A model generated the notes under the pieces. That model did no database searches. It worked only from the letters and a program-made list of their open reading frames with translations, and was not told the DNA's origin. This document shows, piece after piece, positions 33,207 through 34,450 of a stretch of DNA of 64,000 bases (its first letter is position 1; every line of letters begins with the position of its first letter). Position numbers and translations under genes: made by a program. Source of the DNA: Octopus vulgaris (Eukaryota); NCBI GenBank assembly GCA_951406725.2, contig OX597825.1, positions 20,088,001 through 20,152,000 on the forward strand, given 5' to 3'.

Positions 33207-33282
33207 TCCCAGACCGAACGGTTTCTACCTATTTTTAGCAAACACACAGAATATATTTGCCAGGCCAGGTTCTTCAGTGGGA
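33207..33282 (-). ncRNA. Type-I hammerhead ribozyme motif, intact core
   Basis: Minus: UCCCA-CUGAAGA-ACCUGgccUGGCAAAUAUA…UGUGUUUGCUAaaaaUAGGU-a-GAAA-CCGUUCGG-UC-UGGGA. Stem I is 5 bp, stem II is long, stem III is ACC/GGU, triplet GUC. Confidence 0.8.
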
Positions 33283-33418
33283 AGCCTTCGTAATCCTAGA
33301 CGCACATACTGTAGGCCACTGGTAATAATAATTTATTTTATCACCCTATTTTGATTATGTTTATATAAATATATATAAATATATATAAGCGAGAATGAAG
33401 CAACAAGAATGGATAGGT

Positions 33419-33509
33419 TTTTAGTACAATCGTTTCATACAAGGACAGGTTTTATTAAAAGTTGCAAAAATTACAGCATATAAACGTGTCCCGTACTCAT
33501 CAGCTAAAA
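33419..33509 (-). ncRNA. Type-I hammerhead ribozyme motif, intact core
   Basis: Minus: UUUUAG-CUGAUGA-GUACGGGACA…UGUCCUUGUAU-GAAA-CGAUUG-UA-CUAAAA. Stem I is 6 bp, stem III is the near-palindrome ACGAUUGU, triplet GUA. Confidence 0.8.
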
Positions 33510-33685
33510 TACATATATATAAATATATATATATATATATAATTTACGGAGATGTACTTCCATAGCAAGTGACCTGATGTGAGATGGTGTGCTGAAACAA
33601 AAACAACTGCAGCGTGGAAGGTGTTTATAAGCCATTTCAAAACACACAAAAACCGTTAGATTCACTTCAATATTTAATTTAAATT

Positions 33686-33732
33686 TGCCCAAATATTTTC
33701 GTCGCTTCGAAACTGCGACCTGATCACTGACA
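33686..33732 (-). ncRNA. Type-I HHR motif with G3:C8 core swap
   Basis: Minus: UGUCA-GUGAUCA-g-GUCGC-aguuucgaa-GCGAC-GAAA-AUAU-UU-GGGCA. The sister copy at ~10856-10873 has UGACA, which would restore stem I. Confidence 0.65.
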
Positions 33733-33796
33733 AAATTCCGTGCTGCATCTGAGAAGGTAACGGCTTGTGCATCCCACTGATGCAATGCTGAGACGT

Positions 33797-33938
33797 TATA
33801 TATATATATATATATATATATATATATATATATATATATATATATATATATATATATATATATATATATATATATATATATATATATATATATATATATA
33901 TATATATATATATATATATATATATATATATATATATA
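33797..33938. repeat. Pure (TA)n tract, about 70 units
   Basis: Read directly. Confidence 0.97.
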
Positions 33939-34029
33939 CACATGTATATAAAACCAGCTAAAACCCTCTGTGTATTTATTTTATGTAGTTGTCTGGGGTT
34001 TTTTTCTAGTTTCTTAGTGAAATTTTGTG

Positions 34030-34450
34030 TCGCGTAATAATAACCTCATCAGCAATACCATGTCTTAAGTATCGTTTCCTAATTTTATTTTCAAATGTAA
34101 TAAACCCTTTATTTATTTCAATTATTAGATTCAAATTTTTTGCTTTGGGAACGTTTCTCTTACCTTTTCAATATTCAGTTCAACACTGTCAGTGCAAAAA
34201 TTAGGCTTCCTGTTGAAAGTTTTGTTACCGTAAATGACATTGTAAACGCTATTGATACAAATATAATTTTGTATCAACAATGTTAACAAAGCTATCTTTT
34301 GATGAAGTTCTTTTGGTCTTCCTATGTACAAATATCGGGAGACGAACCTTCCTTTACTCGTTGAACAAGATTAGAGCTAGATATTCCAGCCAAGTTGAGT
34401 TTTACAATAGATTTATCAATATTCTTAGTTTTGAGTCATTCCAAGTGTAA
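34030..34450 (-). pseudogene. Possible decayed Penelope-like GIY-YIG endonuclease remnant ending in an HHR-like core
   Basis: Minus: ISSSNLV…(frameshift)…YIGRPKELHQKI (cf. SxNxVY…YIGxTxxLxxRx). CUGAUGA follows at 34052-34046 with a decayed stem II and GACA in place of GAAA. Confidence 0.35.

What the first reader, a model, noticed from the sequence alone, without database searches (positions are those of the whole stretch)
33207..34060. Same-strand array of three (possibly four) different hammerhead ribozymes
Seen in sequence: three minus-strand type-I HHR folds of unrelated sequence within 530 bp. They are 33732-33686 (G3:C8 core), 33509-33419 (CUGAUGA/GAAA/GUA) and 33282-33207 (CUGAAGA/GAAA/GUC), separated by short TA tracts, with a decayed fourth core at 34052-34046. 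Established: Penelope-like elements carry minimal HHRs in their terminal repeats, and retrozymes use tandem HHRs to excise monomers that circularise. Inference: one minus-strand transcript would be cut at 33691/33690, 33425/33424 and 33212/33211, releasing RNAs of about 266 and 213 nt. That would be a heteromeric ribozyme train built by successive co-oriented insertions.
Basis: partly seen in the sequence, partly recalled or inferred. Interest (0 to 1): 0.9.

Follow-up and report, generated by a model that had tools for sequence, protein, structure and literature searches.

The report
Three retroelement ends sharing TA repeat
The three hammerhead-ribozyme motifs are the clipped ends of three unrelated, high-copy Penelope-type jumping genes that likely landed one after another in the same TA repeat, so the cluster is ordinary; one of the three families carries an unusual swapped base pair in its ribozyme core in thousands of copies.

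Summary
Three hammerhead (HHR) motifs are real and the cleavage coordinates are right. The fourth core is not supported. Each motif is the 3' end of a separate repeat family.

M2 (33384-33514) is identical to the terminal repeat (pLTR) of a young, intact Hydra-clade-type Penelope-like element (PLE). M1 (33545-33761) ends a Neptune/Nematis-type PLE. M3 (33091-33312) comes from a 440-nt non-coding, retrozyme-like unit.

No second copy of the array was among 40 scored hits. M1 and M3 each bring an inverted arm on the opposite strand. Elsewhere, neighbouring HHRs of different families are same-strand in only 16 of 42 pairs. Chance alone predicts about 19 same-strand triples per genome. The three ribozymes cannot pair with each other as dimers, and this M1 copy is mismatched beside its cut site. 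A joint 'ribozyme train' is therefore unlikely.

By-product: the M1 family has a G3:C8 core in 6,609 exact genome matches and none with the usual C3:G8. I found no natural report of this, but the key variant paper was unavailable. The scan has noted PLE-HHR arrays in other genomes, nothing on this DNA.

The parts
33797..33950 (.). (TA)n tract, likely the shared insertion target
   Evidence: 77 copies of TA, 97% matches
33770..33794 (+). 25-nt inverted arm of the M1 insertion, matching the same element's endonuclease-coding region
   Evidence: 100% match over 25 nt in the 12 listed loci of the M1 parent element
33545..33761 (-). M1: 5'-truncated terminal repeat of a Neptune/Nematis-type PLE; oldest module
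   Evidence: 2,976 candidates, best non-self copy 92%; RT, zinc-finger linker and GIY-YIG upstream in longer copies
33684..33734 (-). M1 minimal hammerhead: G3:C8 core, extra G between positions 9 and 10.1, G10.1-C11.1, palindromic AAUAUU, U17; predicted cut 33691/33690; A2.1/G1.1 mismatch in this copy
   Evidence: sequence; column counts in 58 copies; 6,609 against 0 pattern matches
33515..33544 (.). TA spacer; 33515-33531 equals 33371-33387, a possible 17-bp target-site duplication of M2
   Evidence: weak, because the same 17-mer occurs 6 times in the window
33384..33514 (-). M2: 131-bp 5'-truncated terminal repeat of a young Hydra-clade-type PLE; hammerhead 33418-33510, predicted cut 33425/33424; youngest module
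   Evidence: 40 of 41 matches 100% identical, 1,123 candidates; pLTR-ORF-pLTR element; intact 981-aa ORF; covariation
33313..33367 (+). Inverted arm (3' tail end) of the M3 insertion
   Evidence: positions 261-315 of the 440-nt unit, opposite strand, 95%
33091..33312 (-). M3: half of a 440-nt non-coding head-to-tail unit; hammerhead 33205-33284, predicted cut 33212/33211
   Evidence: 1,232 candidates, top non-self copies 95-98%; unit structure
34046..34052 (-). Isolated CTGATGA; not part of the feature (chance match or unrecognisable relic)
   Evidence: single-copy flank; no stem I or U16.1, 28 such heptamers in the window

Best explanation
The cluster is three truncated 3' ends of unrelated Penelope-type retroelements, each carrying its family's minimal hammerhead, that likely inserted independently into one TA microsatellite and likely have no joint function. 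Shown: family identity, separate ages, inverted arms, TA flanks, no co-orientation bias. Inferred mechanism: each family's GIY-YIG endonuclease nicks (TA)n and the RT copies the RNA from its 3' end. Early termination, often with a fold-back, leaves a short ribozyme-bearing end with an inverted arm. Each insertion leaves TA on both sides and so keeps the target. Likely order by divergence: M1, then M3, then M2 into the TA gap between them. The ribozymes evolved to process their own element's RNA as homodimers. In this array M1 is probably dead, M2 would need another M2 RNA, and only M3 might cut weakly alone.
For: Separate families with best non-self identity 92%, 98% and 100%. M2 parent is pLTR-ORF-pLTR with RWK, DKT, CxCx5C and no CCHH, the Hydra-clade signature, whose families almost all insert into (TA)n (PMC8557442, section 11 read). 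M1 parent has a CxxxCxxC linker, CCHH and Pfam GIY-YIG. M3 is a 440-nt tandem unit whose longest stop-free frame is 74 codons. Same-family neighbours are divergently inverted in 45 of 53 pairs. Different-family neighbours within 1.5 kb are same-strand in 16 of 42 pairs (p=0.16), and within 600 bp in 5 of 22 (p=0.017, favouring opposite strands). HHR hits lie within 250 bp of (TA)5+ in 27 of 53 cases, against 28% of random positions. A Poisson estimate gives about 75 triples within 530 bp per genome, about 19 of them same-strand. Cross-family stem III pairing is at most 2 bp, against 6 of 6 and 8 of 8 for M1 and M2 with themselves.
Against: This was the only three-family run within 1.5 kb in the 1.9 Mb examined, so the configuration is rare. 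Among the array's own three families, 4 of 6 other neighbouring pairs are same-strand. Only 40 candidates are scored per genome search, so a rare repeated array could be missed. No empty (M2-less) allele was seen, and the TSD evidence is weak. M3's autonomous partner was not found. Cleavage and transcription were not measured.
Confidence: 0.88

Rival explanations
1. Functional heteromeric ribozyme train: one minus-strand transcript is cut three times to give 266- and 213-nt RNAs that may circularise and are kept for that.
For: All three cores are on one strand within 530 bp. M2 and M3 cores are intact, and their monomer folds cost only about 2 kcal/mol above the minimum. PLE terminal repeats can hold promoters (PMC6765202, passage), so read-through is possible.
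Against: No recurrence among 40 scored hits. No co-orientation bias. No heterodimers. The M1 copy is mismatched at 2.1/1.1. In the folded 651-nt transcript stem I pairs have probability 0.01-0.06 for M2 and M3 and 0 for M1. M2 is identical to its family, so the array is too young to show selection. Minimal metazoan HHRs showed no monomer cleavage and low dimer cleavage in vitro (PMC4209133, results read).
Confidence: 0.04
2. Independent families, but PLEs insert preferentially right beside older PLE ends in the same orientation, so the co-orientation is mechanistic though without function.
For: PLEs tend to insert into or next to existing copies (PMC6765202, passage). L069 holds an M2-related end 102 bp upstream of an M1, same strand. 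4 of 6 other pairs among these three families are same-strand.
Against: Across all families, close pairs (600 bp or less) favour opposite strands, 17 of 22. (TA)n is symmetric, so the target gives no direction.
Confidence: 0.07
3. M1 is not a ribozyme, only a hairpin that happens to resemble one.
For: Non-canonical G3:C8. Monomer fold z = -1.3 for the window copy. 9 of 58 copies carry G8, which breaks the 3:8 pair. No compensatory change in its stems was found between subfamilies.
Against: It sits where PLEs carry their HHR. It has the extra nucleotide after position 9, G10.1-C11.1 and the palindromic 15.2-16.2 listed for minimal PLE HHRs (PMC4209133). A sister subfamily at about 80% protein identity keeps core and stems but changes loop II. 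Related loci show U3:A8 cores. U17 is common in the published minimal-HHR alignment.
Confidence: 0.1

Closest known systems
Hydra-clade C-terminal EN+ Penelope-like elements (Craig et al. 2021, PMC8557442; section 11 and passages read)
   Same: M2's parent has RWK, DKT, a CxCx5C linker, no CCHH, CxxC and CxH near the C-terminus, an HHR in the terminal repeat, (TA)n targets and inverted 5' arms.
   Different: The unit is about 4.9 kb rather than under 3 kb, with a long Asn-rich linker and about 1.5 kb of 3' UTR. No tree was built.
Neptune/Nematis PLEs (defining motifs as given in PMC8557442, passages)
   Same: M1's parent has RT (YVDD), a CX2-5CxxC linker, CCHH within a C-terminal GIY-YIG, microsatellite flanks, two discrete 3' ends and inverted arms.
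   Different: Its HHR core is G3:C8 rather than C3:G8 or U3:A8. Neptune versus Nematis was not resolved.
Minimal type I HHRs of metazoan PLEs (Cervera and de la Pena 2014, PMC4209133; results, discussion and supplement passages read)
   Same: Thousands of dispersed single motifs from truncated PLEs, opposite-strand pairs a few hundred bases apart, palindromic helix III, a core 3:8 covariant (U3-A8).
   Different: A three-family pile-up and a G3:C8 family are not described in the parts read.
Non-LTR (animal) retrozymes (review PMC7761336, passages; bioRxiv 10.64898/2026.07.22.740005, abstract to methods read)
   Same: M3's family is a non-coding head-to-tail unit with one type I HHR per unit and PLE-type ends.
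   Different: The unit is 440 nt (the review gives about 150-300 bp) and is mostly present as 1-1.7 copies. The array as a whole is not a retrozyme, because its units are unrelated.
Terminons / Athena chains (known here only from mentions in PMC7761336 and PMC8557442)
   Same: Several HHR-bearing ends stacked in one orientation.
   Different: Those are EN-deficient telomeric elements. This site lies 20 Mb inside an 89.6-Mb contig, with TA tracts and EN+ parents.

Membership tests
Hydra-clade PLE (parent of M2) | RWK and DKT motifs in RT | tested here: met
   RWK at 64 and DKT at 151 of an intact 981-aa ORF
Hydra-clade PLE (parent of M2) | CxCX5C linker; C-terminal GIY-YIG lacking CCHH; CxxC and CxH | tested here: met
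   motifs at 842, 861, 939 and 969; motif-level only, Pfam gave no family
Hydra-clade PLE (parent of M2) | HHR in terminal repeats; insertion into (TA)n | tested here: met
   direct pLTRs at L031 556-686 and 5422-5552; 3' ends run into (TA)n
Hydra-clade PLE (parent of M2) | Generally shorter than 3 kb (typical, not strict) | tested here: not met
   4,866 bp between pLTR starts
Hydra-clade PLE (parent of M2) | Phylogenetic placement of RT | not tested
   no reference PLE proteins were fetched
Neptune/Nematis PLE (parent of M1) | CX2-5CxxC linker and CCHH-containing C-terminal GIY-YIG | tested here: met
   L335 ORF motifs; PF01541, E 9.9e-05
Neptune/Nematis PLE (parent of M1) | Clade placement by RT tree | not tested
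   no reference set; 'Neptune-like' partly rests on recall
Minimal type I hammerhead | Core CUGANGA / GAAA / UH with stems I and II | tested here: met
   M2 and M3. M1 family has G3:C8 in place of C3:G8; the window copy has stem I broken at the first pair
Minimal type I hammerhead | Stem covariation among relatives | tested here: met
   M2 relatives: 10 of 16 pairs change on both sides, 0 of 500 shuffles as high, slid controls far lower. Not shown for M1 or M3, whose copies are too alike
Minimal type I hammerhead | Self-cleavage, as monomer or dimer | not testable with these tools
   needs an in vitro assay
Non-LTR retrozyme (M3 family) | Non-coding head-to-tail units, one type I HHR each | tested here: met
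   440-nt period; two complete HHRs in tandem at 3 distinct loci (L059=L035=L262, L268, L286) among 59 partly overlapping loci; longest frame 74 codons
Non-LTR retrozyme (M3 family) | Abundant circular RNA | not testable with these tools
   only contigs of guessed RNA status were available
Retrozyme-type array (the whole cluster) | Homologous repeated units that move together | tested here: not met
   three unrelated families; the unit was not repeated among 40 scored hits
Terminon / Athena chain | EN-deficient RT, telomeric location and repeats | tested here: not met
   EN+ parents; interior site; no telomere-type repeat near the array in the tandem-repeat list

The most novel reading that the evidence does not exclude
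TA-tract pile-ups act as nurseries for new chimeric retrozymes. Read-through from the M1 terminal repeat is cut at M2 (with a partner RNA of its abundant young family) and at M3, releasing a 213-nt chimeric RNA with ligatable ends that can circularise and be copied back by PLE enzymes. A separate, less bold and likelier point: the M1 family may be an active natural G3:C8 hammerhead in thousands of copies (about 0.5 that it cleaves as a dimer; interest about 0.4 if unreported).
Probability: 0.04. Interest if true: 0.7.

Novelty: new member of a known kind. Interest (0 to 1): 0.24.

Why it matters
The array itself matters little: it is what (TA)n-targeting Penelope-like elements produce in a genome with an estimated 10^5 hammerhead-bearing ends (extrapolated from 864 kb). 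It is a caution for scans that read same-strand ribozyme clusters as systems.

Two by-products are useful. First, a very young Hydra-clade-type element with intact ORFs and identical copies suits work on how these elements target TA repeats and what their hammerhead does, which the cited papers call unresolved. Second, a family that spread with a fixed G3:C8 core, beside C3:G8 and U3:A8 families in the same genome, is a natural test of whether PLE hammerheads must cleave.

Tried and rejected
Rfam: no hammerhead family was listed. The 150 listed of 225 window matches were low-scoring, nearly all microRNA models on TA repeats.

Fourth core: rejected.

L132 as M3's parent: rejected. The ORF there has its own M2-related terminal repeat, and M3 is a neighbour 548 bp away.

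U17 as a defect of M1: dropped after seeing U17 in the published alignment.

One search had M1 coordinates off by one; its M1 rows were discarded and redone.

Expression: no RNA holder listed. Contigs of 4 runs were cut at the TA tracts and showed no joint skipping M2 and no back-joint. This is not evidence either way. The depth figures were not used as copy numbers.

Host gene: Pfam scan of 100 of 187 non-repeat open frames gave no convincing exon; the one hit above cut-off (BRK) lies on a 33-bp tandem repeat. Whether the array is intronic, and on which strand, is open.

Orientation test: 9 of 28 motif families were dropped as single-copy or low-complexity, as were 4 loci that are the window itself. 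Anchor loci were chosen by similarity and partly overlap, so the sample is not random.

Literature on natural G3:C8: one search gave 0 papers; two searches gave 1 paper each, on engineered mutants only. PMC3088659 section 8 reports natural U3-A8 only. Lunse et al. 2017, on PLE hammerhead variants, was not held, and one supplement file of PMC4209133 could not be searched, so novelty of G3:C8 is not established. Searches found no paper on multi-family HHR clusters among the titles listed.

Full report
Setting. The window is G000:C12:20088001-20152000 of a 2.8-Gb, TA-rich animal genome. From recall its repeats look like those of an octopus; I did not test this. Modules are called M1 (33545-33761), M2 (33384-33514), M3 (33091-33312) and M4 (34046-34052).

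Observation. A descriptor scan of both strands found 2 canonical type I hammerheads in 64 kb, M2 and M3. M1 is visible in the sequence with a G3:C8 core. The cleavage positions and the 266 and 213 nt lengths are correct. Rfam found no hammerhead. In 864 kb of unselected genome the descriptor found 24 motifs (17 C3:G8, 5 U3:A8, 2 G3:C8), against 0-1 in three shuffles and 2 in reversed sequence, so such motifs are real and common here. M4 is single-copy, lacks stem I and U16.1, and is one of 28 CTGANGA in the window.

M2. 40 of 41 matches are 100% identical (40 scored of 1,123 candidates). Other copies continue upstream into a shared body and end in (TA)n or run on into a 5' leader. L031 shows pLTR-ORF-pLTR. 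L151 holds an intact 981-aa ORF with RWK, DKT, YRDD, CxCx5C, a GIY-YIG-type motif without CCHH, CxxC and CxH. These are the features given for the Hydra clade, almost all of whose families insert into (TA)n (PMC8557442, section 11). Across 16 related terminal repeats the core is invariant and 10 of 16 stem pairs change on both sides, including the palindromic stem III; 0 of 500 shuffles reach this (related sequences inflate this control, but the slid controls are also far lower). A matching 17-mer flanks M2, a possible target duplication, but it occurs 6 times in the window.

M3. Top copies are 95-98% identical (40 scored of 1,232). The family is a 440-nt head-to-tail unit without a long frame; 3' ends fall mostly near unit positions 213-234 or 306-316, and inverted arms are frequent. 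The window copy is positions 1-220 on the minus strand plus positions 261-315 inverted on the plus strand. This fits a non-autonomous, retrozyme-like element moved by PLE enzymes (inference). Its partner was not found.

M1. Best other copies are 88-92% identical (40 scored of 2,976). Walking upstream through a microsatellite-rich 3' region reached RT, a CxxxCxxC linker and a CCHH-type GIY-YIG domain, so the parent is a Neptune/Nematis-type PLE. The window copy has a 25-nt inverted arm from the endonuclease region. Of 58 full-length copies, 55 have G3, 47 have C8, 9 have G8 and 57 have U17; only the window copy has G at 1.1. A sister subfamily at about 80% protein identity keeps core and stems and changes loop II. 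A 19-nt pattern with G3:C8 has 6,609 exact matches in the genome; the same pattern with C3:G8 has 0. C3G partly rescues G8C in vitro (PMC8495972, passage). Natural U3-A8 is published (PMC3088659 section 8; PMC4209133). My searches found no natural G3:C8, but the most relevant paper was not held.

Is the array a unit? Searching all 686 bp, only the window itself covered more than one module among the 150 listed of 203 matches (40 scored of 6,254 candidates). Across 276 records (1.9 Mb, partly overlapping; 9 of 28 motif families and 4 self loci dropped), adjacent hammerheads of different families within 1.5 kb are same-strand in 16 of 42 pairs, and within 600 bp in 5 of 22. Same-family neighbours are divergently inverted in 45 of 53. 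Against my reading: this was the only three-family run seen, and 4 of 6 other pairs among these three families are same-strand. With 50 other hits in 864 kb, a Poisson model gives about 160,000 motifs, about 75 triples within 530 bp and about 19 same-strand triples per genome, before any TA clustering; 27 of 53 hits lie within 250 bp of (TA)5+, against 28% of random positions.

Could it work as a train? Minimal PLE hammerheads showed no monomer cleavage and low dimer cleavage (PMC4209133). A dimer needs stem I and stem III strands from two copies to pair. Between families stem III gives at most 2 bp; M1 and M2 pair fully with themselves. M1's stem I is broken at the first pair. M2 has 2 bp of stem III and M3 3 bp; their monomer folds lie about 2 kcal/mol above the minimum, and in the 651-nt transcript stem I probabilities are 0.01-0.06. 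Only M3 is a plausible weak monomer. Transcription of the locus could not be assessed.

Verdict. Shown: three real motifs, three families, inverted arms, no orientation bias in the sample. Inferred: independent insertion into one TA tract in the order M1, M3, M2, and no joint function (0.88). The parts are new members of known kinds. The G3:C8 family is the one feature worth a bench test. Earlier scan notes came after my reading was formed, concern other genomes, and were not used as support; look-ups on this genome and on the M1 sequence were empty.

Noticed in passing
G000, genome-wide: The M1 family fixes a G3:C8 core with U17 in 6,609 exact matches. A minority (9 of 58 copies) carries G3/G8 without a 3:8 pair, which may be a subfamily that spread with a broken core.
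   Followed up: partly
L330, L344, L354, L222:8988-9036, L256:4869-4920: Several further families with U3:A8 cores and an ACCGGT palindrome, so C:G, U:A and G:C all occur at positions 3:8 in one genome.
   Followed up: partly
G000:C16: The best-matching M1-family copies crowd on contig C16 (11 of the top 30; 16 of the top 30). Unexplained; possibly a chromosome with slower decay or local enrichment.
   Followed up: no
G000:C1:1101617-1101676, 11156958-11157017, 14555168-14555226, 35528261-35528319: Inverted M1 pairs recur at a nearly fixed offset of about 40 bp, suggesting a preferred fold-back point just upstream of the ribozyme.
   Followed up: no
L151 and L031 (G000:C2:37615500-37630300): Two near-complete copies of the young Hydra-type element lie back to back as a palindrome of about 10 kb, one with an intact 981-aa ORF; several more copies have open frames of about 980 aa.
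   Followed up: partly
L069:1331-1716; L132:1701-2518; L052: Other two-family pile-ups joined by TA tracts, in both orientations and with varying spacing.
   Followed up: yes
window 26879-27653: 33-bp tandem array (about 23 copies) giving open frames of about 200 aa on both strands; its Pfam BRK hit is likely an artefact.
   Followed up: no
window 14722-15384: 3.6 tandem copies of a 184-bp unit, probably a common short interspersed repeat.
   Followed up: no
window 3352-3403 (+) and 29542-29582 (+): Two more decayed hammerhead-family copies (families F7 and F4) in the window, on the plus strand.
   Followed up: no
window 467-847 (-): 126-aa fragment that looks like the C-terminal part of a LINE reverse transcriptase (recalled resemblance, not tested).
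   Followed up: no
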